Origin: Marsupella aquatica
Taxonomy: Eukaryota; Plantae; Marchantiophyta
Assembly: GCA_973895155.1 (NCBI GenBank)
Contig: OZ316894.1
Location: 1,053,968-1,117,967, forward strand
Reading direction: 5' to 3'
Length of the DNA stretch: 64,000 bases
In this document: positions 16,586 through 55,767 of the stretch, one piece after another
Position numbering within the stretch: the stretch's first letter is position 1
How the letters are laid out: each line of letters starts with the position of its first letter
Program-made: the position numbers and the translations under genes
Notes under the pieces: generated by a model
Database searches by the model: none
Told to the model about the DNA's origin: nothing
Seen by the model: the letters and a program-made list of their open reading frames with translations, nothing else

Positions 16586-17026
16586 CTAAGCAGTGAGGAC
16601 CACAGCGCCGCCGGCCTCCTTGATCTTCTTCTCCGCGAGCTTGGAGAAGAACTTAGCCTTCACCACAAGAGGTTGCGACGGAAGATCACCTTTCCCGAGC
16701 ACCTTGAAGAACCCATGCTGCGTGACGTCCAACAGAGGCGCCGCCGACTCGCCGCTAGCCTTCTCTCTCGCAGTCTCGGGCACCAGCGACCAGAGCTTGT
16801 CCACGTTGATTAGAGGGCAGTAGAATTTGTTCATGGTCTTGTGGAAATACCTCATTCCGACCTTTCCGAAGTATCCCGGATGATACTTGTCGAAGAGAAT
16901 TCGGTGGTGGTGCAGTCCTCCAGCGTTTCCTCGTCCTCCAGGATGCTTCCTGTGTTTCCCGATTCTTCCGTGCCCCGCGCTCACATGACCTCTCTTTTTC
17001 CTGTTCTTCTTCAGCCTGGTCGTCAT
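16586..17026 (-). CDS. RPL27A: 60S ribosomal protein L27a (uL15), intronless
   Basis: [62 protein letters not shown]...[13 protein letters not shown], full length at 146 aa. Confidence 0.98.
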
Positions 17027-17188
17027 CGCTCCTGCCTGATGATGCTGCTGCTAATCGACCGAATTGTCCCGCAGGCGCTTCGATCGATCGAGCTCGAAGC
17101 CGAGATCGAAAAGTAGAGCTTCGACCCTCTACTCGAAGGAAGAGGAGAGACAGTGAGAAAGGAGTCTCAATGTGGAGACCGCAGACTT

Positions 17189-17226
17189 TAGGGTTTTCGC
17201 AACGACAGTTTACGTTTTTAGGGTTT
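17189..17226 (-). promoter_or_regulatory. Two telo-boxes (AAACCCTA) upstream of RPL27A
   Basis: TAGGGTTT at 17189-17196 and 17219-17226; telo-boxes are typical of plant ribosomal-protein promoters. Confidence 0.6.
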
Positions 17227-19727: not shown

Positions 19728-19898
19728 ACATCTCACAAATCTACACACTTAGTCTCTCCACCTTCTAGCTTCTAACTCCTAGCTCTTGTTCATATCAACC
19801 TGGAGTGGAGTCAGCAAGAGACATCTCACAATTCTACACACTCAGTCTCTCCACCTTCTGGCTTCTACTGCCTAGATCTTGTTCATACTAAACTGGAG
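19728..19898. repeat. Tandem duplication, unit about 93 bp
   Basis: acatctcaca.tctacacact.agtctctccaccttct.gcttcta...cctag.tcttgttcata occurs twice. Confidence 0.8.
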
Positions 19899-35389: not shown

Positions 35390-38300
35390 CAAGTCTTTGG
35401 AGCAACCCCACTCGTCTGTTGGCAAGGTCATAAGCTATCTGAAAGTTCTGCTGCTGGAAGCTGCCATAGATACTGAGGCCTAGAAGTAGCTTTCAGGAAG
35501 GCGAGGCAGAGATTGGGAACATCGTCGACCTGTATGAAGATGTTATCGGGGGGCAATTCAACATTGAGGTTCGTGAACTGGAAGACTACGGTTGGGATTG
35601 TGGGGCTGGACACTCCAGACAGGTCGTAGCAGAGGTCGTAGCCGTCCTTAGAGAAGTCCACACGAGGGTATGGATGAGCGATGCAAGGCGATTTACAAAA
35701 GGCTTGGAGGCCCGGCTGTCCATCTGAAATAATGTGGTCCCAGAATCCAAAACCAAGCCACCTTGGCCTGATGAAGTGATGGCGAATGCAGCTGCAACCA
35801 AACACAGTCACGTCGAAGACGGAGATTGATCAATATCATATTCATCAAAACAATTAACCATTTGTGCAGCCATGCCTCTAAACTCCAAATATGAAGATCC
35901 AGATTATAAATATATCGAGCAATCAATTCAATTCTGTATTGAGACTCCAAGTTCCTTTAGTAGGGATCGAGTGACAGAAATCAGAAACTCTACGGGGTTT
36001 AAGAGATTTTTATTTTTACAATTTTAGTGAGAGTACAGAAGAATCTTCATAATGAGCTTCACCCAAGTCTTGAGTGTGGATTCTTGGGGGATTAATGCCT
36101 TCAAAATTCCAAAGGGAAAAATCATGATACAATTCTTGATTCTGCAGTCTTCTAGGATAATGCCTTGAAAATTACAAACAGAAAAGTTAGATAATCAGTG
36201 AAAATCACGAAGGGCATTCAGTTACAGTAAACTTACATGAGGGGTACACGAGGGGTGTACCGCCCACAAGGATACCATTAAGAGTGAGGTAGTAGAATGA
36301 GGCATGGGCGTTGTTCCGGGCCAGCGGCGTATACTGCAAGGCGTTACCACCGGTTGACCCTAGTAGCAAACTGCTGGTCTTGGTTAGGGCGCTATCGAAG
36401 TCCACCAAGCAGTACGCGAAGGCGTAATTGATCTGGGAGCCCAGCTGCGATACGAGAGACACTGACCCCATGCCAAAGCCCACCAGCCCATCGGCAAGCG
36501 AGAACGCGCCCTGGTTGTTGTGGCCACAACCAAACCCAATGCCGGAGAAGGGGTGTTTAGAGTGGTGGAGGTGAAGGTGACCGTCTCAGAGGCAAAGTCC
36601 CCTTGCGAGGAGGACTGATCCCCATAGTTAACTTCATATTGGCATGTCTTTTGGGCGGAGCAGGGCTGGGGAGGGTAGAGGACAGAGCAGAGGGCGTCCG
36701 TGCAAGAACGGGTTTTGTAAGACGACGATGCAGATGGGACAGAGATAGGGTCGTTCTGGGAGGAGCAATGAACGCATTTGGAGCACTGCACCCAGATGAC
36801 GTCGCTGCCTGTGTCCACAAGGCTGTAAGTTTCCTGCGCAAAACCCGACTTCAATTCAGTATCTTCAGGATCAAAGTAAGAACATTATTGAACATCAACT
36901 TTGACGACACAAAAACGAGCACAAAAACACGTACCAATCACATGCCTGATTCAAATCAATGACAATCGCGTAATAAAGACCGAAACTAAGGCGCAACTCC
37001 AACTAATCGGTGCATCATTCATTGTTCCTATATATGACTTCAACACTAATTTCTTAATTACGGAGATCCCTTGCATGTCTCAAAATGCAACCCTCCGTGG
37101 ATCATTTGCAGCCGTCTGTCATTTGGCCCAAGCACTCTCTTGTCGACCTCCACAGTTTTCACGGGGCTGCCAGTAGTCTTCTCAAATCGATTGACCCAGC
37201 TAGTCCATCGTTCAGTAACTAGCTAACTACTTCAATATGACTATCGTCTTTCAATCCTGGACCTATAACAAGCATTGTAAAACAATTCATGGTTCGTGAA
37301 TATAACCGAGTGGTCAATTTTATTGCTCGTCAGCCTAGCGACTGAGGTGCATGAGCTGACTCTTCGAGACGTCCATGATGCATTATTACACTTACGTGCT
37401 CTTCCTGCTACAAGAATCTGAAGTCTGGGAGCGGGCTTCCTAGTACCAGACATGGCATCTTCTTCGCTGTGGGATGAACTGCACTCCCGCTTAATTACGA
37501 GCTAGTAATGATTGCAGTGTTGCAGTTGTCAGAGCTCACCACAAGTCTAAGCCGTAAAGCGCGCACGAGCTAGATTGGAATTGGAGTACAGTCATGCCTG
37601 TCCTCGACGCTTCACTGGCAGTCTTATATACAATACTCTAAATATCTGTGCTAGACTCTGTTGCCAGTCAAATCTGCAATGAGTGAATGCTTCGAGTTAA
37701 TGTTTCCCCATTTTCTTTCTATGTTTGCTGTCGGCTCCTTCCTATGTTTGCATATTTGCTCTTGGCTCCCACCCAAGTTTATCAAAATAAAAACTAATAT
37801 TCTATCATTTTGTCACTAGCTCCAGTCCAATTCACTTTGTGCCATTGATTTGGGTGTCCAATTATTCACTTTGTGTCATCGACTTTGGATATGATTATGT
37901 TCTAGCACCTTCATTTTTTATAGCCAACATTAAGTTCCACATTATTTCACTTGTTGTAAATTAACTAACATTAATTTGTTGTAGATTTAACGCGAAGTAG
38001 GCTCTATTGAATTCATTGAGCAAAATAAGATTTAAGGCGATCTAGACTCTATTGAGCAAAATTAATGGGGTCTCTATCCTGGCAGTGTATTTCAAATAGT
38101 TATTTAAGCCATTGACTCACGATGCCAATATATGATCGAAACTGCATTTATGCTGCCTCACAAATCTGGTTCACGTTGACGGCTTTTGACAGCTATTCCT
38201 TGATTTGAATCGGACTCCTTGGTGTTCCCCGTTCTTATTCCGGTAATTACGAGGCCAATTGATACAGTTAATAATTAGAAAAATGTAAAGAAATTTGTCG

Positions 38301-38750
38301 ACTACCGAGAAGATATAATAACTTTCCCCGGAAAGTTTACCTGCTTGGGGTGCCAAGGTTGAACTGCATCACGTAGCTGTCCTGGGAGAAGGAAACAGGG
38401 GTGCGGTATGCTAAATCCGTGTGGTGTCCGCTAAATGCCTCCTGGCCATAAATCTGCCTCTCGAAAAATTGAATTCGCTCTTGACTGCTCTTGACGGCAA
38501 TCACAACCCTTTGAGTCAGAGTCAAATTGGGCATTGCGTATGGCGAGTCAATGTGATGGGGATGCAAAATCTCCAATGCAATGCCCTCCTCCAAGATGTC
38601 TCTTGCTCTCACATGCTCCAAAAATGGTTTCCACATTTTAAATCTGCCAAGGGCCAGCGTTGGAGTCTGATGAGCTATAAGCACCACAAGCACTACCGTA
38701 ACCTTCATCTTGATCTTGGTGAGGCTATGGACTCCGACCTTTGCTGTCAT
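35390..38750 (-). pseudogene. Nepenthesin/CDR1-like A1 aspartic protease, 3 exons, frameshifted
   Basis: Signal peptide, LEILH..SP propeptide and YVMQFNLGTP (exon 1); VDTGSDVIWVQC, YGDQSSSQG and FAYCL (exon 2); LVLDSGTT and QQQNFQIAYDL (exon 3). Several frame changes. Confidence 0.85.
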
Positions 38751-40489
38751 AGTTGTCTCCTCTCCTGGTCACCGGAGTACACTTAGTTTAGTGCGAATGA
38801 TGATAGCTAGGGGAAAATTGGCGGGGATAAACTAAAGCCTTCAGTTTAGACTCTCATTTCTAGTTCAGGTGCCTGCTATCTAATTGAGAGACACTTTCGT
38901 GCGAGATGCTCATCACAAGATGCTCGCAATGTATATATTCTGCGTTACTCAGAAACATGCAGCTCGCAGAATCGGGTTGACGGCAATCCAAAACCCAGAC
39001 TCTCATGAAATCGGCAAACCAAAACCCAGACACTCATGAAATGCGTAATCTGAGTTCCTACAGGTTTTGTGTGGCACTCAGGAAACAAAGAACTACTCTG
39101 TCATACCCAGATTCTCTTGAATACAGATAAAGCAAATCCTACCCCGTAGAGAATTGAAATATATGGAAGAACTCCAGGGGTGATTCAACTCTCTCGAATT
39201 GCCGTTATCATTCGCACACAAATTCAACTGTGCAACCAAAGCTCGAGGATTTACGGTAATATTAATATACGTACCCAGTCTGTAGGATGCTAAGGCGTCT
39301 GACTCGGGACCGGCTCGGCTGGACTGGCTCACGGCTCTCAGTATCCCACAATGCTGATCGAGTTCCCATATATTAGGCAAGGCTTGCAAGCTTCCTGGAA
39401 CTTGCTGGTGCAGGGTGTTGAAAGATAGATATCGATATCTAGACAGAATCCACTGCATCCCCGGGATATATATAATTAATCTTGCTCACTGCCCGGAAAT
39501 GGAGGATTAGTCGCACACTCTGCCTAGCAATACTATATACAAACAGAATTGATCTAGAGCGACAGCTCATAAAATGAGACGGGAAGCTAGGGTACCTCGT
39601 GTTCAGATGCGTGTACGTTCTCGCTTGGTCCCACCGCTTTGCGCGCATGCGTGTGGAGGAGTCAAACTTGTAAGAAATGGACTTCGACAGTGGGGATCAT
39701 GAATCGAGAGAAATGTGCATCACCAAGCTCACATGAAGTACAGAATCTTCGGCTAAAAAGTACTTGCAGCAGTGGTTCAGCTATATGAATGAGGGTGCAG
39801 TCGTTTGCAAATTACCCGTGTGTGTAGAAGCGGTCCTTCAGTCAGTCGATCAGTTGTTGAAACCGCCAGGCAATATCTCGAGGAAAAGCTATGCAGCAGT
39901 CGCACACAAATTAAGACTGAGGTGATCAAGATTCAGTCGTCACTGCCAGTTTCTCCCCCGCGAGAGGTGGGCTGAAGAAGACAATCTGTCCCTTTAGTAT
40001 GACAAATGCAAAGTATGTCCAGCTCGCTGCGATTATATACATTCAAACTCTCCCACTATCCCTCTCCCTTCCATTGCGTCCAATCGTACTATAGTAACGA
40101 TAGACCTCTTGTCAAAGTCAAAGTCAGACCAACGTCCTCACTAGGCTCAGTGACGACTGCAGCTCTTATATACGAGGCTGCTTTGTTGGGACAGAAAGTG
40201 GCCTTTGGTTCTCAGAAGTACACGAATCAGAGGGCAGATAGTACAATATTGGAGTCTGTAGGAGATAGAGTAAAGGGTGCTCAGGGAAGGGTTGAGTTCT
40301 GCGTTGGCTATCGATTTTCTCATCTTATTACATCTTAATATTTCAGTTTTGTGAACAGTAACTGAAGCCTGTGAATCGAAGGAGCTGCTGGATTGGTGAA
40401 GTCGAGCCGTCCACCACGGATGGCTTGAATCCGCAAGTGCTGTAGCTAACGAATTAACCACTTACCTGAGAGTTAACCACTTAGTACAT

Positions 40490-40509
40490 CACTATATTCA
40501 TTAAAACTG
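40490..40509 (+). repeat. Left terminal inverted repeat
   Basis: Exact reverse complement of 53182-53201. Confidence 0.95.
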
Positions 40510-40957
40510 TACTTTTAAAAGTCCATAAGATGAACCCTAAAGTTATTTTTGTTCAGGCCAAATTTCTATTAAAGCATTCCCAAAAGCTAATTTTTTTCAG
40601 CCCAAATATACACTTTTGAATGCCCAAAATTTTGTTTTTTTTCACCCAAATGTTTAATAATAACTTAAATCATATATTCTAATTAATTTAAAAATTAGAG
40701 TAATTTAATTTAGTCCAAAAATCAGAGGCCAATACCACTCAGACCATCTATAAATTAAAAAATATAGATGGTCATAAATCAAGGGTCAAAATGAGATTGA
40801 CCCACTATATAATTATTAAATTGTCCAGTCCAATGAGAGAGCCTCACACTAAGCATATATCCTAATTATTTACTTTATCCTACATGTTCAAAACATATCC
40901 TTTCAAGACATAATATGAATGTACAATTCAGGGTAGGCACTAGAGCAACCCTATCTC

Positions 40958-43900
40958 CTAATGATCAAGACAAAACTCATTTGAACAAGAAAGTCTGCTT
41001 CCTGATTTATCATAGCGGATGTCACGGTTGCAAGTATCTCTCGCATGGTGGTTCTTAAACTTATTGGTGAGATCCCTAGTTCTGAGAACTTTCCAAATAA
41101 AGTGCCTTCTATTTTGTGTATGAGGACCAGAATAGTTGTCTCCAAGTATTATGTTTGCAGTTTCTTCGATCTCATCCATGGTCCACGTCTCCAGTGGTGG
41201 GTAATGTTGCACCTCGTTCTTTCCGTCCCAAGGAATCTCTTCAGGAGTCACATCCAAGATGGTTCCAAACTCCCTATGGATACAACGACAATCTCCCCAC
41301 TTCTGTTCCAAAAGAGCATAGATGGCAGCATGATCCTCCTTGCTTGTTAATAAATTGAAAACAGACCACTTTGGATTGTTGACAGTGATATAATGTTGAA
41401 CGCAATAAGCCTTTCTCAATTTGCAAAGATACGGCCATAATATCTCGGGCAAAAAAGTGTCATTTGAAGCTGTGTGAGTAAATGGATTTGGAAACAATCC
41501 ATTCACGTCATAATTCAAAAATGCCTTCAATGGAGAATCATCAATAAGAACTGTATTAGAAGCATCATATTTTTCTGGAAAACGGTCCCAAATGGTTTGC
41601 AAATTCTTCAGAAGTAAATTGGCCTTCCCATCTGTTATATCTGGCCTTTGGATGCAACTATCAAAGGTATCTTCTTGAGTAAAGACAAACTTGAACTTCT
41701 GTCGCTCCTCCTTAGTGAAAATCAACTCCATTAAGTCCATTGTTTTTGGCCTCCTTGCACAGGTCCAAATTGCGACGTCAAAAACCATGAAAGCTGCATA
41801 TAGAAATTCGTGGAGGTATGGGCGCTCCACATACATGAAATTAAACCCTCCACGTCTCCCCCAGTGCACACCACGTAAACTGATTTCGCCATGGTCCTGA
41901 GCTTCTGGTCTTAATGCAATCCCAACAAATCTTGTTAAGGTCAAGAACCAAGAGCTTTCGCCAGATTGGAGAGTGTAGTATTGGAGTGAATTCTGGAAAC
42001 ATTAACATAAGCCCTTAGTCAATGCGACTCAAAGTTTAAACAATTACTACGGAGGAAAACTCTCAAAATTTGAAATCAAACAAACTTTGTTATAGCATTT
42101 GAAGTAGAGAGGAACGACCCTGGGGCGACCCTCCTAGAAAAACATTAATTACATTCAATTGCCATTTTTTAGATCCAAAGTATACCTGGGTCAAACCCTT
42201 CCTCCACAGCAACGCTTTCCGAGGGAATGCCAACAAAATCCTTTGAGGAAGGAGATTCTACGACGGAACTTTGGTCTGTAAAAAAGTATATTATTACAAA
42301 GATAAAGCTTAGATTGTCATTAAAATACCAAGAACCAAAGAATGGGCTAATAATTTCCAATGCTAAAATGCCCAAATTCATCTATTGTTTGATCACCTAG
42401 AACACTCTGTATCTCGGAATTGATACCACTGGGAAGTTGCTCTTCAAAGGATGGGGGTGCAAAAACTGGGCTCAGTCTCAAGTTCAGTTTTTTGTAATCT
42501 GATTTTGCCATTATCTTTGGAGCATCGTCTAGTGATTCTATCATTCCAACCTTTGGTCCATTTCTCCATATAAAATGAGTTGCAGGACGGACTGTTTTCA
42601 TATATCCAGTCCTGCCGATCTCGGATCCAGAATTTTGTGAAAATGATAATACTACGGGGCTTCCTGTAGAAGCACTTGTAAAAACCAATTTAGTCTCTGA
42701 TGAGCAATATAGAGGAGACAGGGGAGGATTTGAAGCACCTGCCTTCTCTTCTTCATTTGCAGCGGTCTCAGGTACTTGACGATCATCCTCCTTTGCAAGC
42801 CCAATGTCTGACATTTCTCCCAATTCTACTGCGTCAATATTGCCTAGACCATCTGCGGTTGCCTTCCAATGTGCGTCCGATGTGGACGATGTAAGATCTG
42901 GGTCCGATTGGTGCATCCAATTCTCTACACCGGCAAAGGGATTTCTTGGTGGGTCGCCCTCAGGTCGACCCACAACATCAGCCAACCCCACACCAAAGTA
43001 GGGAATACCTACCACTTGTGTTCCACGTTCATCCAAATTTCGGGTGACCCTGTCGTCTGTGTCGTGACCCAATTCTCCTTCCTCAATATCATCTTCGCCC
43101 TGGTCTACGCCTTCTTTGGCACCAACATGCGCGGAAACCCCATCGCGGGCTCTACCAAATTTGGAACCGCCCATTCGGTCACTCATTATGGAAGGAACTT
43201 TCTCGCAGAGAACCCTTCCATATGCCTGAGTGAAATCATATTCATCCTCAGTGTCTGAATACACAAAGCATTCTCTGAAACACAACAATGACACCTTCAT
43301 AACCTGTCCTCCCGAGAAAAAGTCAAGTATAGTCTCCCCTTCAGCCGAAAAAAATTCAATAATACTCTGCAGCATACATTTTGGCTTAGCGTGAATATTC
43401 ACAAAGCCACCTCTACTTCCCACCATCTCAAACATGGGAGCCTTTCGTAAGAAATCTCCAATGTGAAATGCCGAAGTTGACTCAGTCTCTGTCTCCTTAC
43501 TTGTCTTACTCTTATTCTTATCTTGCTTCTCTGTCTTGTCTTCCACTTGGAAATCAGGGTCGATCGCCGAATTGTAAGAAAATTGGCAATTAAATCCAGG
43601 CCTGAACACTTGCTTCCAATCAAATTTCTCCTCAGTGGTGATTCCTGCAAAGATTATCTCCTCCATACCACAACTAAAAAGTAAGCCCTCTGGAACTGGT
43701 GTATCACTCCGTCGATAGCTCCCGTAGTCGACGTGGATGTCCATTCCCTTTTCATGTTGCAATTTCCTAAGGGCACTCAAAATGTTTGCAGCAAGTGGCC
43801 CCGGATGCACAGTCATGACAACAACAATTGTTGGATTTCTTGGAAGATCCACAATGTATTGCAGTAATGCAATAATTTCAGCATCGGTCCAAACATGTTG

Positions 43901-46900
43901 TCGGAGCCTACTGAAGTCAACAATGGCAAGAGGACACAAAGGCTCAGGCTCTTGTAGCATTTCCGGCACGGTCGTCTTCATCAAATTCTCACTAAAAAAT
44001 GTCAAGAAAGGCTCCGTGCGAGAACGACCAATCCCACCAAATTCTTTACAATACAACCCATCTAGTCTGACCATCAGACTTTGTGGGAAACTCTCCTTGA
44101 CCACATTCTTCTTCAATGAATTGTTGAGGTAAACCTCACCCGCTGCTCTCCTCAATTTTGTCATCTCAAGCTCAGATTTCAAGGAAGGCAACAATATCAC
44201 CAGAGACTCCCAAGATGTGCCAACAGGAAACTTCTCACGATACTTTTCCACGAAATAGCCAATAATGACTGTTCTCAATTTGGACATTATCTTGATTGTA
44301 AGGGCCAAGTCTCCCATTGCGACAAGCTCTGATTTGTTGGTGACATCCTTCTTCAGCAAGACACGCTCCTCTTCAACGTCCTTCAAGATCTCAATTATCT
44401 GTTTGCTACTATTCTCTCCTTCAAAGCATCGAAAGGTACCGGGAGTGATCAATTTTGGGGGTCTTGGCCCTCCATACCCACCAGCCCCGTCTTGGAGCTT
44501 CCCACTCAACCATTTTGCGCACACGTTCTGCCATAATTCAAAGAGCTCATCTTCGGCAAAAAGTAACCAATAAATGCTCTTTAGGCTTGACTTCCCCATT
44601 GTAACCTTTGCCAGGGCAAACCAATCCTGCATATCCAATGGACTTGACATTAGTTTCAGGGTACAATGCATATGTTAGAAAATTTATACCTATGTTTGAA
44701 ACAGGCTAAGCCGCCTCGCCCCAAGGGCGTGGCGAACCTCTACATCTAACCGCAATTGACTGAAACGGAACTAGGGAATTATTCTTAGAGAGACTAGTCT
44801 AGGTTGCCGCGCCCTGAGGGCGAGGCAAACATTTGCTTTAATCTTCTAACCAAGGAAAACAAGAAAAGGCAGCCTCGCCCTTGGGGCGAGGCAAACCTCT
44901 ACCATTGACAATCTTTAAACAAAGCGGATCAAGAATAGTTTGCATTGCTCCAACATGTACCTAATAGTTTTTCCTGTCTGTAATTTGATTGGTCCCAATC
45001 CCTGGACGCGGCGGTTTCCCACACTCCTCAAACTGCCTTCGTGCATGAACAATAGTCTCTAAAAAACAAGACTTAAATTGCATAGTATCATTGACAGCAT
45101 TCGATAAACTTGAATGCTCAACCAAAATTGTCTTCGGAGTGAGGTCAGATAGGATCCTTGCTTTCCTATACTTTAGTTTGTTGGCAAGATCTGTCAGCTT
45201 GGCGTCAGTCTCGGCCCACCCTTGGATCCATTGGGCAGCTCTTGCAGAATGCTGGCCACTGATGGCAAGGAATTGGATCTCATGCTTCTTCACACCAATC
45301 AAAAACTCTTTCCTATCCTGAGGTGTGTTGTCATAATGAAGCAACTGTTTACTGCTCTCGCGATACGGAATCAAATCAGCAACTTGTGGTTCCTGTCCAG
45401 GGTTTTTCATCATAGACTTTGATATCTCCATTGCAAGCGAAAGATTGAACATTCGATATACAAAAACGGCCGATGGCGGATTAATACTTTTTACAGGAAT
45501 ATCAAAAACTTCGCGGATGCCAAAAGTATAATACTGCTCAATATTACGCAAAACCTCTTGGCCTTTGAGCACATCATCTTCTTTGGGTCCTTCTGTCGGA
45601 CACATATCATCCTCTGGATGCAAGACAAAGTTTGAAGTCGACCCTGACATTGGTTTTGATTTCGCAACCTTTGCCTTCTTTGTCTGCTTTTTTTGGGGGC
45701 CCTCATCATCTTCATTTTTTTTAGCCATCTTCTTACGGCGTGAACTCCCAGATTGTTTCTCTTGTTGAACAACCGGCTCTTGAAGCTTTCGTTTCTTCTC
45801 TGTCTTTGATTGCGCACTTCTTTCCACTGTCTTCTTCTCTCCTTTGCCTTATGCTTTGCTTCTTTTTTCTTCATCTCTGAAATCCACGTCCGGCACGCGG
45901 CCTCTTGAAACTCTGGACAAAAAATGAAACTCTTGTCGATTGCTTGCTCGTATGAAAAATGTGCCTTATCAATCATCCTTTGAACTATCCAAGTAGACGG
46001 AGGGTCCACACTGTCCGCATTGTCATGCATGTGCTTCTTTACGTAGAGAAATCCAAACACTAGGTCAACTCCACTTATTTGAGAACGCGTCTTCTCAAAC
46101 ATCTGATCAATTGTTACTCCATCTGGGAAGAATCCCATATCAGCTACGCTTATCTCCAATCGAGCCATCCACTCAACATTCAGTAAAGTCGAGTAGAGTT
46201 TTATTGGCACTAGAAGTCTCATCCACTGAGATTTCTCATTGGACTCAACAATAATCGTTGCATTGCGGTTGTTGTCCGTGTTCACAAGGACGACTGGACC
46301 TAGAGTAACAATTGTCTTGCGGTCATTCAATTGACTTGTGATGCCCTTGAAACAAATCAAGAGACTGCCTTCCGCCGACACCCCAACTTCTAGTGCCCAT
46401 CTAAATCCTGGAGTATCTTGGTCAGGGAAAACAAAGTCCTTGATATCCTCGTCCATAATATTTAACTCCGGCTTCTCAAGATTTTTTCCTGGTAAGAAAC
46501 ATTGAAAACAAAATGGTCAGCATCATATTTTTAACATTGACATGTGGAAAACTTTCAAGGTGCCTCGCCCTTGGGGCGAGGCGACAAATAGAAGATTGCA
46601 AAATCTTCTTTGCTCCTAGTGCAATTAGCCCTGCCACCTCATCCAAGCAATCAAACATTATTTAGGAATGCAGACGACATCGCCTCGCCCCAAGGGCGAG
46701 GCAACTTCTAGGAAAGCAAACAACATTTAGGAATGCAGACAACATCGCCTCGCCCCAAGGGCGAGGCAACTTCTGGAAGCAGACAACATTTAGGAATGCA
46801 AAGGACATCGCCTCGCCCCAAGGGCGAGGCAACTTCTGGGAAAGCAGACAACATTTAGGAATGTAGAGGACATCACCTCGCCCCAAGGGCGAGGCAACTT

Positions 46901-47443
46901 CTGGGAATGCAGACAACATTTAGGAATGCAGATAACATTGCCTCGCCCCAAGGGCGAGGCAACTTCTGGGAATGCAGACTACATTTGAGGAATGCAGACT
47001 ACATTTGAGGAATGCAGACGACATCGCCTCGCCCCAAGAGCGAGGCAAAAAATAGAATATAGCTAAAGATCCTTTATTAATGTAAGATACAAGGTCCAAT
47101 ACGCCTTCGGAGCAACAAGAAATCTAGAATGAAATAGACGTCGCCTCGACCTTGGGGCGAGGCGACTGCAAAGGAATATAGAAATTTTCCTAATAAGAAG
47201 TTTGAAATCCAAATTAAAGTAAAGTTGCCTCACCCTAAGGGCGAGGCAAGAAGTTGAAGCAGGTGGTGCCTTACGTGGAAAAGTTAACTGGGCTTTCTTT
47301 GACGCCTCCAACGCATTGTTAACCAATTTTTGGACATCCGGGTCTTCAGGGTCATATTCATACAGAGAGTTATAATTGAAGTTCAATGACTCTTGAGAAC
47401 TGGCGGAGGTGGTGGAAGCTTCAGAACTGGAGGAAGTAGACAT
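40958..47443 (-). CDS. Transposon cargo gene, 5 exons, about 1,683 aa when repaired: ParB/Srx-like + degenerate N6A/N4C DNA methyltransferase fold + FCP1/NIF-like HAD domain (disrupted in this copy)
   Basis: Exons 47443-47275, 46488-44961, 44626-42397, 42275-42186 and 41992-40958 are all GT-AG and phase-compatible. Lesions: 1-nt deletion near 45838, TAG at 44961-63, 1-nt insertion near 41932. Confidence 0.7.
44713..44892. repeat. Three 21-bp palindromes GCCTCGCCC-NNN-GGGCGAGGC in intron 2 of the cargo gene
   Basis: Copies start at 44713, 44806 and 44872. Confidence 0.9.
46562..47247. repeat. Array of nine 21-bp palindromes in intron 1 of the cargo gene, partly as a ~65-bp tandem repeat
   Basis: Copies start at 46562, 46682, 46747, 46810, 46875, 46940, 47026, 47143 and 47227. 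Confidence 0.92.
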
Positions 47444-48278
47444 TGTAAGGGGCGAGTGAGATTTAAGATGACACGTGGCAGCAATGGAGAATGCCACAGG
47501 CTGCAAGAGGGCACTAACAGGCAAACAATGATCGAGGGAGCGACCCAAAAGGGAAGGGAGCAAGGCGGAAATAAAAGCCTTAGAGCGAGGCGGAAAACAA
47601 ATCCCAAGAGCGAGGCAAAAACAAAAGCCCTAGAGCGAGGCAAGAGGGAGGCAAGGAGTGAGGAGACGAGAGAGGAGGCAAGAGGGAGGCAAGGAAATGA
47701 GGCCTCAAGCGCAAGGCCTGCCTTCCTATACCCCCTGCGAGCAAGGAGTCCGAGGAGGCAAGGATCCGAGAGGGTACGGAGGCATCAATGCGCGCCAATG
47801 ATGGAGACCCTCCTCGGTGCATGTGATCGTGAGTCACCGATGGTGTGACCACTCACGACCACTCGCGACTCACCTACCAATTTTAAACTTCCGAGCTGTC
47901 AGCGGTGTGTGCTCGCAACTCACCTATCACTCGTGAGTGATTGGCTGACACCCTATCCGATGTCTACTTGTGTGCTGGGTGCGTGCCTCATCCACCCGTG
48001 CCCGATCTGTTGGTGTCCACTCGTGTGCTGGGTAATATGTGGGCTTTTTGCCTCTCAAACTGAGTATAGACCTCCCACAATCCATTTTTTTGGTTCATTG
48101 TCATTTAGACAGTGATTGGTACGATCACTGACTCTCCTCTGTCCGAGTGCCTTGTTTACGTCCGCATGGTTGAATGCAAGGTTTAGTAAGGGCACTGTGG
48201 TGCTAAGAGTTACAATGCTGGCATCCAAGGTACCCATTTAGCTTGTACAAGGGTGGACAGAGATATATTGCAGAGCAG
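47444..48278. promoter_or_regulatory. Probable bidirectional promoter and 5' UTRs between the two element genes
   Basis: Genes diverge here; GAGCGAGGC half-sites at 47580-47641, CACTC(A/G)C/GTGAGT repeats at 47829-47940, and a splice donor CAG|GTTAGT at 48279. Confidence 0.45.
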
Positions 48279-48478
48279 GTTAGTGTTTTTATTTATTTAT
48301 CTTAGCAGTACTAGCTCAACTACATCTAATTCAATACCTTTAAGCCAAACCTAGATTAAGATTTACACATTAGGTTCTAGATCATATATTTTACTCATTC
48401 TAAACCTTTATCCACAGTCTAGCATGTGTAGAACTTATTGTACCCCTTTATGTGATTACTAACATAGTTTCTAGAAGT

Positions 48479-48773
48479 GGGTCGGAATTATTTCGTGTCG
48501 ACCTGACTATGTCATCTTAACTAGCATTTTAAACTGGTATATAAAAGCATAAGCAAGATAGTTTCACAAATAGTTTTGACATAATTTCAACTTAATAGTT
48601 GGAGTAGGGTCGAAATAATTCCGACCCAACTTATCAATGTTTAGTCAATTAAATCATTTTAAGACATATTGTTGGAGGAGGGTCGAAATAATTCCGACCC
48701 GACTTGTAAATGTTTAGTCAATTCAATCATTTCAAGACATAATGTTGGAGGAGGGTCGAAATAATTCCGACCT
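48479..48773. repeat. 73-bp tandem repeat carrying 21-bp palindrome GGGTCGAAA-TAA-TTCCGACCC, in the predicted 5'-UTR intron (48279-48892) of the transposase gene
   Basis: Copies start at 48607, 48680 and 48753, plus an inverted partial copy at 48479. Confidence 0.88.
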
Positions 48774-48905
48774 GACTTGACTGTATTTAGGGTTTTGAGT
48801 GATTTTACAATATTTTTTGGAGGAGAGTCCAGATTTTGAAACATGATTGTAACATGGGGAACTTAACAATTTCTAACTTTATTTGAATACAGATAGTCCG
48901 CTATC

Positions 48906-51900
48906 ATGATCAATTTTACACGAGGGGATGAAGTGTCATTGGTGATCGATGGATTTGAAACGGCAATTGGGATAGTTCAAAAAGTTGACCCCCAGGATAC
49001 TATACAGAACATTTGTCTAGGGGACAATCGAATTGGGGTATTGATCGAAAAGTGTTTTGATGGATCGCGTCAACTTCCATTTCCTTTGCCCAAATTTTCT
49101 ACATTGGCTGAGGCAATTGACTCCTGCGTGATTTGGGATTGTGCATTGGCATACTTGAGGTCATCAACTCAGCGCCGAAGAATCAATGTCGATGATTTCT
49201 CTTTGGCTGGAGATGCTGGAAATGATAAATCCAAAAGTGATGCAAGGGTTGAAGAGGACGTGTTCAAGGAAGGAGATGAAGTTCAGATGTTCATTTTTGA
49301 TCAGTTGGTTGCAAATGGAGTTGTTTTCAAGACAAATCCGATGGATATTTGTCATACTCAAACACTCGGGGTTGGTCGCATCAGTATAAGAATATCTGAT
49401 ATTGTTAAGGGAAATCAAAAATTGCCATACTCGCACCCTGGAGCTGATACAATAGCAGAGGCCTTGCATACCTGGGTTATTTGGGATGTTGTGCATGTTT
49501 CTAGAAAGGGCACTCTTCGAGATTTTGGCGTGTTTGGTAGTTCAAATATTTTCAATGATCTTCCATTAAAAGATTTTACACTACGTTCCAACTGGATGGC
49601 GGAGGAGGTTGATTTGTATGACGCTTCTCGTTGTCGAAAGGTTGCAACAGGTGTTATCACGGTCCCATTTGAAACAGGTGCCGTTGACGATGAACTTCTT
49701 GGTGCAGATCATGTTGGTGTTGCTGTTGTGAATATCAATGAACCCGGATTATTTCCAAATATCCATGTTGGTACCCCTGGCTTGGTGAGGTGGGAAATCA
49801 AATCCCTTCTATTGATTTCGTCTCAAAGGTTTCTTGGGGATATCCTTGAGGAAGTTTCATAGAAGTGGATGGAGTCGGGTCGAACTAAGGGCGATCCGGA
49901 TTCGGATGGTGATGGTAAACCTACAAAAAGACCATACAATTTCATTAGGAGGACAAAAGTTGATCTTGAGGAGAGGAAGAAAAGGCATTTGGAGTCGAGG
50001 GCACTTTTGAAAATTAACGAGGAGTCCATTGATTCCATCCAAAGAGAAGGTTGTTGCAAGCTGAAGTGTTGCTTGAACATGCCCAGGGAGGACTTAGAGG
50101 CAATGAGGAGGGAATACCATGGAATGTCAAGTGACAACAAAACAAGTCACATCTTTAGTCTCTTTGGGTGTAGAGAGGAGCAAGTCAAGAGAAAGGGATT
50201 TTTTGTTCTAAAGGGACGTGTGGTTTGTAAAGATGCATTTATTAAAATGCATGGGTTCAGTACAACAAAGTACTATGACTACAAAAATCAATACGAAGCT
50301 GGTTGCACAATTGGTTTCCATGGAAATCAGGGACAACGGAAGACACGATCAAGCACTTTGCACGCTCGCGCCTTGTTGGAGTCCATTTTAATCCAAAATG
50401 GGGAACCAATGCCACATCTTCCCTATGGTGGGTCCAACGGCACTGACACTATTGAATATCGGCTCCCATCTTGTTTTACTAAGAAGGAGATTTTCCAAGA
50501 GGTGTTTACCATAGATGGGTTTGCTAAGGTTACTGAAGTTACTATGTACAACATCTGGAAAAACTCATTTGATAATTTTGACTTTCACAAGGGAAGTGCA
50601 TTTGCCAAGTGCACATTTTGCACTGAGTTCAAAGATCAATTGATGCGGGAGAAGAGAAAAAAAGAGCGTGCAGAGATTGAAGAGAAAAGAGCGCGACATC
50701 TTCGTGAACAAATGTCAAGAAGATATGTTTACTATGCTCATAGGGTTCTTGCAAAGAAGGATCCTCAAAACTATCTTTGCATTATTCACGATAAGATGGA
50801 TCAAGCCAAGACTTGGATCCCCAGGTTGGTCCCCACTCCAAAATCCCTCTCTGGTAGTGATCAGCCTTTGCCTATTGCTCTTACTGGGATGTTAACCCAT
50901 GGAAGAGATCCTGGAGTGTATGCACATTTTAGTTTGACTGGACTTTGGCCTGGAGATGCAGACTTTACCGTGACATCTTTGGCCAAATGCCTCCGAGATT
51001 TGGAAGATTACACAGGAGACAAAACTGGAGACCTTCTTGAGGGATTGAATTGGAATGCAACTAGGCCAATATTTCAGTCCCTTCTAGACTTTGAAGCATT
51101 TCTGGCCGGTTACTTGGAACCCAAAAATGTTTCAATTGTTCGATTTCAAGGCATTGAAGATGGTCAGGAGACTAAAAAGTCAAGCACAGTGGATGTTGGT
51201 TCTAAGGATGATCCTGAGACTACTAGGGGCTCTTTCAAGCCCTTACCAAGGCACCTAACGTTGCAGATGGACAATTCAGGGAAAGATAACAAAAATCAAT
51301 ATGTGATGGCATTTTGCACTGAGCTTGTTAGCAGGGGGTGTTTGAAACTGTGCAAATGTCATTCCTCATGGTTGGCCACACCCATGAAGACGTGGATGCA
51401 TTTTTTCTCAAGTATCCAAACAGGTCAGATACAAAGAGGTTGCTACCCTCTTGGGGTTGATGGCTGAGGTTTGGGAGTGTGAAAGCATTCATCCTGTACC
51501 ACGTTTGATTCAAGAGGTTGCATCTTACAAGGAGTATTTGAAAACTTTCCAGGTGAAAGAGATAGAAGGTCACTCAAAACCAGTGACATTTCTTTTCTCC
51601 ATGAGGGATAATGTGCCAGTGTATCAATATAAAGCACATGTCAAGCAACCTTGGCTTCCGGCAATGGGGAGGTCCATTTGGAGAACTGATCCCATCACAA
51701 ATGCGCTCATTTTACCGGAAGGCCAACCATTTGCAAAACCTATATCTGGGGATGTACAAAAGAAGGCTGGAGAAATCATCCCATTCCTTAATCGCTATAT
51801 TTATTTCTTGAAGAAAAGTTGTAAGGATGAGACCTCTGCAGCATATAAAGAGAGATTTCCTCTGGTCAAATATTGGGAGAATCTTGTGCAAGCACTGTCC

Positions 51901-52611
51901 GAGGAACTTACAATAGAAGGGGAGGGGGAAAGACATTTGCCATTGACAACTGATTTTTGGCCAAAGACTAACCATGGCACAGGTTACAAGATGATTTTGG
52001 GGACATCTCAGCCGTCAAGTGAACCTTCTCAAAATCCAGAGATGATGGACCTTCAAAATGAGTACATGGAAGAGATGGAAGATGAAGCTGCACCCTTTGT
52101 TGGTGCACGACAAGAGCGAGAACCTGCACGTTGGATTCCTCTACAAGATATTCAAGAAGGTCACTTTGTATTTTTACGTCCAGAGGATGAATGGGAACAG
52201 GAAAATGGCAAAGGGCGTTTCTGGTTGGTTCGAGCTTTGGGTGGTGTGGATCCAAACCATGAGGTTCCCTCAACAGATTTGCAACATATTGAAGGGTCTT
52301 CTTCAACGTCTGTTGAGAGCATTCCTCTTAGGAATGCTCCTATGTTCCAAGTACAATGGTGGAGGCCTAAACATGGTAAGCATGATGCAAAGGATGATGT
52401 TCGATATGAACGTTGCTTTCAAACCACTAAGACTTGGGAGTTGGATCCTGGGTTTGACAATGTTACTCAAAGTTGGCAGTTTGCAAATTCTGCAATGTAT
52501 GGGTTTAAGTCAGGTGCTAAAGAACAAAATATTATGGATAGAGGTTTGACAATTCCTAAGAATGTTTTGAAAACTCTCAAAATTTACATGGAAGGTATAA
52601 TTGATGAGTAG
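48906..52611 (+). CDS. Transposase, about 1,235 aa when repaired: three Tnp1/En/Spm-like domains + Cys/His region + DD(D/E) core with Sola1/DUF7869-like motifs (disrupted)
   Basis: Three repeats of A.G.V...DP......LG..R..V.I......LP.P.....T..EA....VIW; then CCKLKCC, VCKDAF, CTFC, IIHDKMD, LQMDNSGKDNKN and FLMVGHTHEDVDAFF. The three ORFs join through one in-frame TAG (49860-62) and two 1-nt homopolymer deletions (G5 51334-38, T6 51401-06). Confidence 0.82.
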
Positions 52612-53181
52612 ATTGATAGAACTCGTAGGTTACAAGTCTCCACTCAAATGACTTGTGATTAAGAGGGTCGAGTTGATTTCCATGCGTTGGTCTAAAGTGA
52701 GAGAACAAGACAATCAAATTAATACTCTATGATCTCTCAAAGCTATTGAATGGACTTTCTTATAATTATTATTTTATTTGTCTTAGTATATTTTAATTCT
52801 AGAAAATGATGTCATTTCATTCCTTCTAGTAGGTTGGATATCATCCTAGTTAACTTTGTCTAGACACTATAGTCATTCCATTGTATTGGTGCTTAGTTAG
52901 ATATCTTACTCAAGCTAAATGTTTTGAATATAGATGCTATCAAAGCTTATATGTTATTACTAGATTCTATCTATTTTCCAACCAAATGAACACTTTTATC
53001 ACCCAAATGTTTTTTAATATCATCCAATTTAATATTTTACTTTCCCAAAATTTCATTTTTTTGTCCCCAAATTTACATTTAATGATGCTTGAATTTTCAT
53101 TTTTCATCTTCCAAATTTACAATATTCATGCCTAAAACTATGTTTTTAAATCGCCAAATTTCCCTATATCCTTTATAATTT

Positions 53182-53201
53182 CAGTTTTAATGAATATAGT
53201 G
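53182..53201 (-). repeat. Right terminal inverted repeat
   Basis: CAGTTTTAATGAATATAGTG, exact reverse complement of 40490-40509. Confidence 0.95.
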
Positions 53202-55767
53202 ATTTACCTGAGATAAATATTTATAGGATGACATCAAATCCCATCACTTTTCATTTAGCTGCAAAATGTGAACTCATCGGTAGTCTTCAGGTGGACATAG
53301 TAAACTCAACAATATTCATTAGACTAAAAGAAATAAAACACATCAATAATTGCAAGTCACGATACTGTATGTAGTTAGGTCCAGGGAGGAAGTTATTAGC
53401 TATTAAAACATGTGACGCAGGACATCTTCTCCAGAGCCGAGGGGCCGAGTTCAGGAGCGAGGTCTATACGTACCTATGTGGAGCAGCCCGTCTACACGTA
53501 CTCCACACTTCCACACTCCACACTTTGAATGTGATTTTGAAGAGCTCTTTGGAGGAACAATGGATGGGATGGGCACTCGTCATAATTGCGAGTGTGGATG
53601 ATACAGTGTTGAGTGATTGTGTAAAGAGTGTCATGAATGTGGCCAACAAGCATTTGACCTCAGCACTATCTGAGACGAAAACAGCTAATTTCCGCATGGA
53701 TGGTCGTGCCTGACCACTTGCAGGATCGAGATCAGACCATTTAGATCAAGAGGCTCCAGGTGGAGCTTCTTCTGTTTTCGTTTTGGCACCAAAGAAGCTC
53801 GAATTAAAGGTGGCGAGCCTCTTTTTGACATCACCTTTCTAGATTACCTTCTGAAGAGGGCTGTTCGAAGCCTTCGATATGACTGCTTTTGCAACCGTTT
53901 TAGTGCAATCCGATGACTGTAAGCGTTTCAAGCCAAGTACGGTACATTGTCTTGGACGTCATCGTGATCGATCGATAGTCTCATCAAAACTTCGCTACGC
54001 ACTATTGAACCGTGCAGCCAAACAATCAGCTAGCAGCTAGCACTTTGTTCAGAAACTCAGGTTCTGAGTACCCAAAACCCTTAGAATTGGCATGCTTGGA
54101 AGACATGACCCGATGGCAGCGCAAGTACGTGCACAACTCCAGTTGACATTCGCGGCAGATGCCGCAGCACTACAGTAGCATTGCTACACTCGCTTGGTCT
54201 GGCCCCTGCTGCTCTTCTAGCCTTGACCAGCCATACCACAGGTGCTAGGTCAATCGAGTCGATTGAAGCCGGAACGCAGCTGTCAATTACACAGTGAATT
54301 TGATGGCGTCGTCTAGACTGACGTCTGGGTCACTCGGTCACCCGGTCTTGTAGGCCTCAATTACCGCCGCTCTCCACTAATGAAAAGCTGCCTCACTCTT
54401 CACATTTTCAGCTAACTGTTCATTGCAGTGTTATTACTCGTTCAACTTCTTCCCTTTAGAGCTCACTGTAACCTGTCAAGGCTTTGATGGCACAAAAGAC
54501 TCATGAGTGGTTTCCTCGAGATTTTGTTAATCGTCGGTCAACAATGCATAAGTGCAGTGTGTGCAAGTGCATTCTGTCGTCAAGTGCAGGCTGGCCATGT
54601 AATCCCCTAATATTTAAACATTTTCCTCAGTCTCTAAATGCACCAAAAAATGTAGTTCACATAAGTGCAGGTCGACCCTTACTGTTTAGAAATAATGGCA
54701 GTAAGTGACAAATACATAAGTGCATTTTTTATTGTTTGATAAGTGTACAATGCACATGCACTTATCAAGCAGTTACTGCAACGGATAAGAAGACCCACAA
54801 TCCTGCACGAAAGAATAACTGGATCCTAAAGGCCATGGTCCTATATGCAAGAAAGGACCAGTAATCAACACTGCATTTTTCAAATTGATTGCACCTCAGT
54901 GGTTGTAGTTCTAATTCAGACCCCGTTTCACAAACATGTATATATATATAAACATGACCTTTAATCAATCAGCATACCAATTCGACTCTGTACTTTTCGT
55001 CTCCGTCCGGGTGAACTCGCACTATGCCACGTTGACTCTCGCACAAATGTGCAGTCCCAAGGTCATATTTATTGACGAGTGGAGCATACAATTGTCTACA
55101 TAAAGTAGCTAGTTTCATGCACTTATCCAGTTGAATAGTGCAATATGAGGGCTCGTGATATGAGTAGGCCGATGTGTGTGAGCTGAGAGCATCTCCTACT
55201 CCGCCTACTGGGTTTGCTTACTCTTATTGAATATGGTGACCAAACCCAGGAAAGAAACCCATTCACTCTAGAAAGCTATGAATCCCATTTTCACGGACAG
55301 GGTTTTTTTGGTTAGTGGATCTCATATATATTGGATATGTATATGGAAGAGTTGTACATGTCAGCATAGTTGACTTTCTTCTGGGTTAGTTATACTTGAT
55401 TGAATTTTCAACATTTTAATCTACAATCACCAGTTGCTGATCTCTACTATTTAGTAAAATTATCCCGTGGGGACCAGTACTGGGGTTTCCAGTTTAGGCT
55501 AGTGCATTTCAGGTTGCCATGATAGGCACACACAGTGAACTAAGAAAAAAACTTTGTTAGATTGGGTATTTATTTGTACCCAGTATCCAAACAGTGTTGG
55601 GTTGACAACTCATATGAGGAAGTGCATTTAAGCTCACTGCACAACGAGAAGACTATATGGTAAGATGTTACATGGATTGTGTTGCAGGGATGACAGTGAA
55701 CCTGTTTGACCACTGGCTGCTCCTACAGAAGTCACCTAGTAGGGTTGGGTTCCATGCTCAAAGGTCT

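What the first reader, a model, noticed from the sequence alone, without database searches (positions are those of the whole stretch)
40490..53201. 12.7-kb CACTA-ended transposon with an atypical transposase and a chromatin-enzyme-like cargo gene
Seen: perfect 20-bp CACTA TIRs, a 2-bp AT duplication, two divergent intron-containing genes and intronic palindrome arrays. Known: classic plant En/Spm elements make 3-bp TSDs and use a TnpD (Transposase_21) enzyme; some CACTA elements carry anti-silencing cargo. Inference: this combination of CACTA ends, Sola1/DUF7869-like catalytic motifs, fused TnpA-like domains and ParB-MTase-phosphatase cargo fits no plant family I recognise. It may be an undescribed lineage with its own regulatory or anti-silencing system.
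Basis: partly seen in the sequence, partly recalled or inferred. Interest (0 to 1): 0.92.

Follow-up and report, generated by a model that had tools for sequence, protein, structure and literature searches.

The report
Sola1 transposon with ParB-methylase-phosphatase partner
This is a broken copy of a recently multiplied 12.7-kb cut-and-paste jumping gene in a non-seed plant (likely a liverwort); it matches the Sola1 group rather than CACTA and carries a second gene whose protein likely binds repeated sites in its own introns to regulate the element, a design already described in a brown alga.

Summary
The transposon is real, multi-copy and young, but its ends were mis-read. The AT outside CACTA is kept in 26 of 28 listed junction contigs, and relatives have A(A/T)C.. 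ends; 3 of 7 complete elements show exact 4-bp duplications. The element is therefore most likely 40488-53203, with 22-bp TIRs (ATCAC..GTGAT) and imperfect 4-bp flanks (GTAC/TTAC). The transposase is DUF7869, has a predicted RNase H fold, matches a published Sola1 profile (17 of 44 positions, ungapped) and lacks EnSpm motifs. The divergent gene encodes a weakly supported ParB-like domain, a beta-class methylase fold with a degenerate catalytic motif, and a probably fused NIF phosphatase; 12 palindromes lie in its introns. The same two-gene layout occurs in three other loci fetched here, and in Sola1-1_Ec32 of Ectocarpus (published 2025); this scan noted it before in animal-like DNA. Both genes are broken in this copy. 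New here: a land-plant version with TnpA-like repeats, a likely dead methylase and a phosphatase. Function is untested. Verdict: new variant of a known kind, interest 0.5.

The parts
40488..53203 (.). Whole element, 12,716 bp (Sola1-type DNA transposon)
   Evidence: Contig depth steps up at both ends; junction contigs begin at 40488; perfect 22-bp TIR
40488..40509 (+). Left TIR, 22 bp, begins ATCAC
   Evidence: homologous to the AACAC.. ends of L007/L009/L010/L053
53182..53203 (-). Right TIR, 22 bp
   Evidence: a high-depth related contig ends at 53203 (X2 record 16)
40484..40487 (+). Left 4-bp flank GTAC (candidate target duplication, 3 of 4 match)
53204..53207 (+). Right 4-bp flank TTAC, present once in the empty allele
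   Evidence: joint 40461->53204; X4 loose end
40462..40487 (+). 26 bp absent from the empty allele: a 10-bp repeat of the right flank plus 16 bp of filler largely copied from 40454-40464
40558..40651 (+). Left subterminal CCAA(A/T)(A/T) repeats, five at 22-bp spacing; likely transposase binding sites (inferred)
   Evidence: 7 in the end tile; background mean 0.43, max 3 in 187 tiles
52982..53159 (+). Right subterminal repeats, seven at 21-22-bp spacing or twice that, same orientation as on the left
   Evidence: (family D5)
48906..52611 (+). Transposase gene, about 1,235 codons: N-terminal TnpA-like region, DUF7869 RNase H core, C-terminal beta-barrel domain; broken by a stop at 49860-49862 and two frameshifts near 51334-51338 and 51402-51407
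48906..49859 (+). TnpA-like region (PF03017 E 0.011, below cut-off; relative P0015 E 2e-8); three repeats by eye, not resolved by self-BLAST
48607..48773 (.). Three 73-bp tandem units, each with a 21-bp palindrome (6-bp arms), in the inferred 5' intron of the transposase gene
   Evidence: D7; acceptor at 48892
47275..47443 (-). Accessory gene exon 1 (predicted)
46489..47274 (-). Intron 1 with 9 palindromes (46562-47247)
44961..46488 (-). Exon 2: unknown N-terminal domain, basic linker, ParB-like domain (SGQHS motif); 1-bp frameshift near 45834 and a stop at 44961-44963 in this copy
44627..44960 (-). Intron 2 with 3 palindromes (44713-44892)
   Evidence: junction supported by homolog P0180
42347..44626 (-). 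Exon 3: helical domain, beta-class N6A/N4C methyltransferase fold (motif IV position reads DFSR, motif I reads DFFSGG), acidic linker, conserved C-terminal motif; ends at a stop (42347-42349) or at a donor (42396)
42186..42275 (-). Predicted 90-bp linker exon
40958..41992 (-). NIF/FCP1-like HAD phosphatase exon (motif DLN); frameshift near 41880 in this copy; fusion to the upstream exons is predicted only

Best explanation
The region is a broken copy of a young, multi-copy DNA transposon of the Sola1 type whose second, oppositely transcribed gene likely encodes a self-binding regulator rather than a working methylase.

Shown: boundaries, many sibling insertions, an empty allele, domain content and lesions.

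Inferred steps: (1) In intact copies one transposase of about 1,240-1,330 aa would bind the 22-bp-spaced subterminal repeats, likely through its TnpA-like N-terminal region. (2) Its RNase H core (D..D-39-E/D) would cut at the ATCAC ends and insert with a 4-nt stagger. (3) The accessory protein would bind the 12 palindromes in its own introns through the ParB-like domain. (4) It would act there as a sequence-specific scaffold (pseudo-methylase, plus an FCP1/UBLCP1-like phosphatase in a spliced long form) that keeps the shared promoter region usable or tunes its own expression. (5) This copy, with both genes disrupted, could move only in trans.
For: Copies. In run X1, single element contigs have depth 421-515 against 15 for both flank contigs, with 3-12 differences per 0.6-1.7 kb. 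X1 may be the window's own source, so it is not independent. Of 28 listed junction contigs from 4 runs (3 organism labels), 26 begin at or left of 40488 with unrelated flanks, 2 at 40491, and 0 at 40489-40490; 3 rows were not shown. X3 and X4 hold an empty allele.

Ends. L087, L089 and L053 have AAC.. ends and exact 4-bp duplications. Over 7 complete elements: 4-bp exact in 3, 3 of 4 in 2, poorer in 2; 2-bp exact in 1; 3-bp exact in 0. Sola1-1_Ec32 has AACCG..CGGTT ends and a 4-bp TSD.

Enzyme. DUF7869. The model of relative P0016 aligns best to integrases and mariner transposases (Z 8.0, rmsd 3.0-3.4, 129-161 residues). Relative P0067 matches the published Sola1 HMM consensus at 17 of 44 positions without gaps, read by eye.

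Partner. 82 homologs of the ParB-like exon and 8 of the methylase exon. Beta-class fold (CcrM E 1e-7; M.RsrI E 7e-9). The same divergent layout occurs in L089, L087 and L041 and in print.
Against: This copy's 4-bp flanks differ at one base and sit beside a 26-bp microduplication, so its own TSD is not clean. TTAC does not fit the AWWT preference quoted for Sola1. No Repbase Sola1 sequence could be aligned, and the profile match covers 44 of 124 positions and is unscored. Foldseek found no match at E <= 0.001 for the transposase model, and Z 8 is middling. The ParB call is weak: 0 of 31 members hit a ParB Pfam (one hit DndB at E 0.052), no credible PDB hit, and the Atlas ranks DUF3723 first and ParB_N 25th. 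Only 1 of 30 metagenome loci with at least 5 kb upstream showed a partner exon. Links to the L087/L089 partner are weak (hhalign probability 2-74). Homologous methylase exons end without a phosphatase. No binding, expression or chromatin data exist. CpG o/e in the arrays (0.68-0.72) is close to the flanks (0.55-0.63).
Confidence: 0.8

Rival explanations
1. Same transposon, but the accessory protein is an active N4-cytosine or N6-adenine methylase that marks the element's own DNA to escape silencing (the idea proposed for the Ectocarpus gene).
For: Complete beta-class fold with both halves of the domain; first Asp of motif IV and the acidic residue after motif I kept in relatives; proposal in PMC12477816; ParB-like genes beside inverted-repeat arrays in red-algal Plavaka elements.
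Against: The motif IV position reads DFSR, DFTR, DFGR, DLAR, DLIA or DFAR in 9 of 10 aligned rows (missing in 1), never (D/N/S)PP(Y/F/W) (motif recalled; alignment). Motif I is one residue short against M.RsrI.
Confidence: 0.2
2. The second gene is an inert passenger captured from the host (Pack-type cargo), and the palindromes are incidental.
For: The phosphatase exon resembles cellular UBLCP1/FCP1-type proteins; most related loci show no partner; no function was tested.
Against: Same orientation and domain order beside DUF7869 transposases in L041, L087, L089 and the Ectocarpus element; 38-57% protein identity among plant-type relatives; even depth across the gene in sibling copies; all 12 palindromes flank the ParB-like exon. 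This rival is more likely for the phosphatase exon alone.
Confidence: 0.1
3. It belongs to Lanisha, the moss superfamily proposed in 2020-21, which I could not see as sequence.
For: Lanisha is an abundant, little-described cut-and-paste group from a bryophyte; DUF7869 elements are abundant in bryophyte-type data.
Against: [quoted passage not shown]
Confidence: 0.06
4. One reading: a CACTA/EnSpm-like element 40490-53201 that always inserts at AT and duplicates it.
For: CACTA pentamer, AT on both sides, TnpA-like region, subterminal repeats; EnSpm families with CAC ends, 2-bp TSDs and two opposite genes exist in Ectocarpus; ESTA has a fixed TA duplication; this copy's 4-bp flanks are imperfect.
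Against: No Transposase_21/TnpD hit at E <= 1; no CMCT motifs; homologous TIRs carry AA on the left and TT on the right, which cannot be a direct repeat; exact 4-bp duplications in 3 of 7 elements; the empty allele has AC, not AT, before the right flank.
Confidence: 0.05

Closest known systems
Sola1-1_Ec32 of Ectocarpus (PMC12477816; passages and supplement rows seen, figures not seen)
   Same: Large Sola1 element; AAC-type ends; 4-bp TSD; opposite-strand gene with ParB-like and N4C/N6A methyltransferase domains; proposed self-binding.
   Different: 21.5 kb with 282-bp TIRs against 12.7 kb with 22-bp TIRs; 1,104-aa partner against about 1,325 aa (three exons) or 1,685 aa (with the phosphatase). 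No phosphatase, TnpA-like region or intronic palindromes are mentioned in what I read. Whether its catalytic motif is intact was not seen.
Sola1 superfamily subgroup (Bao et al. 2009, not held; features from passages of PMC3845634, PMC9033089, PMC4455052 and the HMM in the PMC5751038 supplement)
   Same: DN..xNKN and FL..GH motifs in register; 4-bp duplications in relatives; already listed for the moss Physcomitrella and for Azolla.
   Different: The AWWT target preference is not evident (1 of 3 exact TSDs fits); long insertion between D1 and D2; extra N- and C-terminal domains; second gene.
Plavaka accessory genes PAG2/PAG3 of red algae (bioRxiv 10.1101/2025.02.11.637652; passages)
   Same: ParB-like gene next to tandem inverted repeats, and a PF01555 methylase gene, inside giant DNA transposons.
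   Different: EnSpm-type transposase; ParB fused to a 2OG oxygenase and the methylase fused to SET, in separate genes.
Plant CACTA/En-Spm
   Same: TnpA-like (PF03017) region, subterminal repeats, a CACTA pentamer inside the TIR.
   Different: No TnpD, no CMCT motifs, no 3-bp TSD; CACTA lies 2 bp inside the likely end.
VANDAL/VANC anti-silencing systems (as cited; otherwise recalled)
   Same: A transposon-encoded accessory protein thought to bind repeated motifs in non-coding parts of its own element.
   Different: Unrelated protein and transposase; VANC activity is shown, whereas nothing is shown here.

Membership tests
Sola1 | RNase H-fold DDD/E transposase core | tested here: met
   Model of relative P0016 (44-56% identical to the window's frames; pLDDT 79.8): the top 22 VIA rows are integrases or transposases, best Z 8.0, rmsd 3.0-3.4, 129-161 aligned. 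Foldseek gave no E <= 0.001.
Sola1 | Agreement with the published Sola1 RNase H profile | tested here: met
   17 of 44 consensus positions (HMM 81-124) identical and ungapped in P0067; read by eye, not scored; positions 1-56 not read.
Sola1 | 4-bp target-site duplication | tested here: inconclusive
   This copy GTAC/TTAC (3 of 4); exact in 3 of 7 complete elements (L053, L087, L089), 3 of 4 in L076, poorer in L047 and L027.
Sola1 | AWWT target preference | tested here: inconclusive
   1 of 3 exact TSDs fits (AAAT; not ATAA or TTAG); this site does not. Too few sites; Sola1-1_Ec32 is itself biased to end in A.
Sola1 | Clustering with Repbase Sola1 transposases | not testable with these tools
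   No Repbase or Dfam; Bao 2009 not held.
CACTA/EnSpm (CMCT) | Termini begin 5'-CAC(TA) | tested here: not met
   Conserved end extends 2 bp further out.
CACTA/EnSpm (CMCT) | 3-bp (or 2-bp, variable) TSD | tested here: not met
   3-bp flanks differ under both parses; the 2-bp AT is invariant in 26 of 28 junction contigs.
CACTA/EnSpm (CMCT) | TnpD / Transposase_21 catalytic domain | tested here: not met
   No such Pfam hit at E <= 1 in 9 window frames or at E <= 0.1 in 6 relatives.
CMCT clade including Lanisha, ESTA, Plavaka | C(2)C and H(3-4)H between second D and last E | tested here: not met
   0 of 9 relatives; D2-to-E spacing is 39 in all 9 and CxxC lies 60 residues before D1 (feature).
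CACTA/EnSpm (CMCT) | TnpA-like domain | tested here: inconclusive
   PF03017 E 0.011 (below cut-off) in the window, E 2e-8 in P0015, E about 0.1 in two others.
Lanisha | Sequence similarity to the type element MT647524 | not testable with these tools
   Sequence, Repbase report and paper supplements not available.
Beta-class N6A/N4C DNA methyltransferase | Fold and motif order (IV before I) | tested here: met
   Foldseek: CcrM, MboIIA, RsrI, PvuII at E 1e-7 to 8e-7; profile hit to M.RsrI E 7e-9.
Beta-class N6A/N4C DNA methyltransferase | Catalytic (D/N/S)PP(Y/F/W) motif IV | tested here: not met
   0 of 10 rows; position assigned from strand order in the model and the alignment, not from a residue-level superposition.
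ParB/Srx superfamily | ParB N-terminal domain | tested here: inconclusive
   Atlas: DUF3723 0.91-0.93, ParB_N 0.90 with 110 of 256 features; Pfam 0 of 31, DndB E 0.052 in one; not folded.
NIF/FCP1-like HAD phosphatase | Domain match and DxDx(T/V) motif | tested here: inconclusive
   PF03031 E 1e-13; UBLCP1 E 1.5e-9; first Asp present, second replaced by Asn, in a shifted frame.

The most novel reading that the evidence does not exclude
Land-plant Sola1 elements run a sequence-specific self-regulation or anti-silencing system new to plants: a ParB-like clamp loads on palindromes in the element's own introns and delivers a pseudo-methylase and a captured CTD-type phosphatase to its chromatin or to RNA polymerase II, independently of VANC.
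Probability: 0.25. Interest if true: 0.8.

Novelty: new variant of a known kind. Interest (0 to 1): 0.5.

Why it matters
It extends the Sola1 + ParB-methylase design, described so far for algae in the papers I could search, to a non-seed land plant. The family is young and has tens of near-identical copies, so intact ones are likely and the system could be tested in a tractable liverwort. The catalytic motif is lost across all aligned plant-type relatives while the protein is conserved, which points to a non-catalytic job and questions the published self-methylation idea. There is also a practical warning: a CACTA pentamer 2 bp inside the end will make structure-based annotators file these elements as CACTA.

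Tried and rejected
No whole genome is held, so sibling flanks could not be paired. No RNA holder was listed; this says nothing on expression. Viral contigs: 0 of 40 pattern matches confirmed. A search for long (1,139-3,250 aa) homologs of the methylase exon found 0 of 5,938 candidates, which is weak evidence about the phosphatase fusion. The methylase and phosphatase frames gave no tblastn hit in 80 loci. Sequence search of PDB gave nothing for the transposase or the ParB-like alignment. Foldseek on the transposase model was blank; RAG1/Transib-type chains were absent from the listed VIA rows, which excludes nothing.

A left end at 40484 was considered and rejected: it rests on one other locus sharing four flank bases, and the repeat breaks after 3 bp. 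Assembly error as the source of all lesions cannot be excluded, because contigs drop rare variants. However, about a third of X1 depth at 50511 shares this copy's 9-bp shorter form, and a contig in frame at both 51334 and 51402 is listed only for X4. CpG/CHG ratios gave no clear signal. Self-BLAST did not resolve the three TnpA-like repeats. The paper search for DUF7869 returned 0 papers.
Full report
1. Setting. The window is eukaryotic DNA with ordinary plant-type genes (ribosomal L27a, a CCCH protein, a RING-H2 protein, aspartic protease pieces, an LRR receptor kinase). The nearest named relatives of both element genes are from the liverworts Calypogeia (58% over half of the transposase query, 46% over the methylase exon) and Riccia, so the host is likely a liverwort or other non-seed plant (inference). 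No genome was held.

2. The observation. A perfect 20-bp inverted repeat starts with CACTA at 40490 and 53201, with AT on both sides. Because AT is self-complementary, the same letters give a perfect 22-bp TIR at 40488/53203. Twelve 21-bp palindromes lie in two introns of the minus-strand gene and none in the rest of the window. Short repeats at 21-22-bp spacing occupy both subterminal regions: 7 per end, against a mean of 0.43 and a maximum of 3 in 187 background tiles. A five-exon minus-strand model has four GT-AG introns and closes in frame when the 1-bp and 5-bp differences seen in sibling copies are counted.

3. It is a real, young, multi-copy transposon. Eight public runs hold part of the stretch; I laid five. 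In X1 the flank contigs are identical to the window and have depth 15, while single contigs inside the element have depth 421-515 and differ at 0.2-1% of letters. That suggests roughly 30 copies; depth is a rough guide and X1 may be the window's source. Of 28 junction contigs listed for the left end (X1 10, X2 3, X4 6, X5 9; three rows not shown; X1 and X2 share loci; some may be right ends laid in reverse), 26 begin at or left of 40488 with unrelated flanks, two at 40491, and none at 40489 or 40490. X3 and X4 carry an empty allele that joins 40461 to 53204.

4. The ends are most likely ATCAC, not CACTA. An invariant AT could be a fixed target, as TA is for ESTA. Three results argue that it belongs to the TIR. 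First, AT-rich metagenome loci with the same transposase family have a homologous TIR beginning AACAC on both strands, so the two outer bases are AA on the left and TT on the right, an inverted and not a direct repeat. Second, among the 7 elements for which I could place both ends (out of the window and 93 loci, duplicates counted once), flanks outside A(A/T)C.. match at 4 of 4 in L053, L087 and L089, at 3 of 4 in the window and L076, and worse in L047 and L027. A 2-bp match occurs in one element and a 3-bp match in none. Third, the empty allele has TTAC once, flush with the right end, and AC rather than AT before it. Against this, the window's own flanks are GTAC/TTAC and the left side carries 26 bp of duplication and filler, so this insertion alone does not fix the TSD length.

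5. The transposase. The plus-strand gene spans about 1,235 codons (48906-52611) and is broken by a stop and two frameshifts; relatives are single proteins of 1,296-1,328 aa. It hits DUF7869 in three frames and PF03017 weakly, and no TnpD family. A model of relative P0016 aligns best to retroviral integrases and mariner transposases over residues about 90-345 (Z 8.0); Foldseek was blank. In 9 of 9 full-core relatives the second Asp and the Glu are 39 apart, with no C(2)C or H(3-4)H between them, the feature said to unite EnSpm, Plavaka, ESTA and Lanisha (PMC12730594, passages). The published Sola1 HMM consensus, positions 81-124, matches P0067 without gaps at 17 of 44 positions, including DN, NKN, FL and GH (PMC5751038 supplement parts 58-60; by eye). 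The C-terminal domain has weak matches to KOW, chromo/Tudor-type and BAH barrels (Z 5.3-5.9; DNMT1 BAH1 E 0.27), a lead only.

6. The second gene. Exon 2 has 82 homologs at E <= 0.001, with a conserved SGQHS motif. Its ParB identity rests on weak Atlas hits (DUF3723 first, ParB_N 25th) and on analogy; Pfam and PDB sequence searches did not confirm it, and I did not fold it. Exon 3 has 8 homologs, and its model matches beta-class N6A/N4C methylases, but none of 10 aligned rows has a DPPY-type motif where motif IV should be. Homologs P0223, P0237 and P0246 carry the ParB-like, helical and methylase regions in one chain. The NIF exon is closest to UBLCP1 among solved structures and has DLN in place of DxD. 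It is present at full depth in sibling copies, but homologous methylase exons end at the same C-terminal motif without it, so the fusion is a prediction. This copy has a frameshift near 45834, a stop at the end of exon 2 and a frameshift near 41880, where sibling contigs are open.

7. The pairing is conserved but not universal. L089 (10.9 kb) and L087 (13.75 kb), intron-containing eukaryote-like contigs filed in bacterial MAGs, are complete elements with a DUF7869 transposase and a divergent gene. L089's exons match my profiles in the same order (E 2.7e-5, 0.019, 0.0012), and L087's match L089's (E 3e-15, 3e-9) but my profile only weakly. L041 has a partner fragment about 8 kb upstream (E 6e-5). 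Only 1 of 30 metagenome loci with at least 5 kb of upstream room showed one; many are old and decayed. In Calypogeia both genes are annotated on a record of the same length, but adjacency could not be checked.

8. Comparison with what is known. Sola1-1_Ec32 is 21.5 kb, has AACCG..CGGTT ends and a 4-bp TSD, and carries an opposite-strand ParB-like + N4C/N6A methyltransferase gene, proposed to bind and modify its own element. Red-algal Plavaka elements have ParB-like genes beside inverted-repeat arrays (bioRxiv 2025.02.11.637652, passages). Sola1 is listed for Physcomitrella (PMC9033089, table) and Sola for Azolla (PMC6786969, passage). Other passages read: PMC4455052, PMC4738411, PMC3845634, PMC3627910, PMC3985635, bioRxiv 2021.09.26.461848. 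Bao 2009 and Yuan and Wessler 2011 were not held. I found no paper on a land-plant Sola1 with such a partner in searches, but the library lacks most subscription journals and Repbase. The motif names DPPY and DxDx(T/V), and VANC biology beyond, are recalled.

9. Mechanism and verdict. Cut-and-paste transposition by a Sola1-type enzyme, with this copy moved only in trans, is well supported (about 0.9 for the family call). The role of the partner is inferred. Its conservation, the palindromes on both sides of the ParB-like exon and the lost catalytic motif make a self-binding, non-catalytic regulator the likeliest reading (about 0.45, against 0.2 for an active methylase, 0.1 for an inert passenger, and the rest for a role in transposition itself). 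The finding is a land-plant variant of a recently described design, not a new lineage. Interest 0.5.

Noticed in passing
window 40454-40487: The insertion site carries a 10-bp repeat of the right flank and 16 bp of filler copied from nearby sequence, absent from the empty allele; this may be repair synthesis at insertion or an older footprint.
   Followed up: partly
window 50511: About a third of X1 depth shares this copy's 9-bp shorter transposase, so a deleted subfamily appears to have amplified.
   Followed up: partly
window 52100-52608: The C-terminal transposase domain shows weak matches to KOW, chromo/Tudor-type and BAH barrels; it might read chromatin marks.
   Followed up: no
window 40740-40806: A hairpin-forming inverted repeat and a palindrome resembling those of the transposase 5' intron lie near the left end.
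   Followed up: no
window 3745-4381 and 6788-7375: A local duplication at 94-96% identity.
   Followed up: no
window 35431-38768: Scattered aspartic protease (TAXi_N) pieces on the minus strand, apparently broken or duplicated.
   Followed up: no
L087 and L089: Intron-containing eukaryote-like contigs of 589 and 733 kb are filed in bacterial MAGs; L089 has helicase-like long ORFs at 14663-20249 beside the element (Helitron-like by recall, untested).
   Followed up: partly
L014, L053, L061 and related loci: A short GGTGGCCACC-type palindrome recurs several times around the transposase in this AT-rich family, echoing the window's arrays with a different sequence.
   Followed up: no
L006:1-2217; L016; L052: Compact DUF7869 loci with very long TIRs (L006) or palindromic/tandem end arrays (L016, L052).
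   Followed up: no
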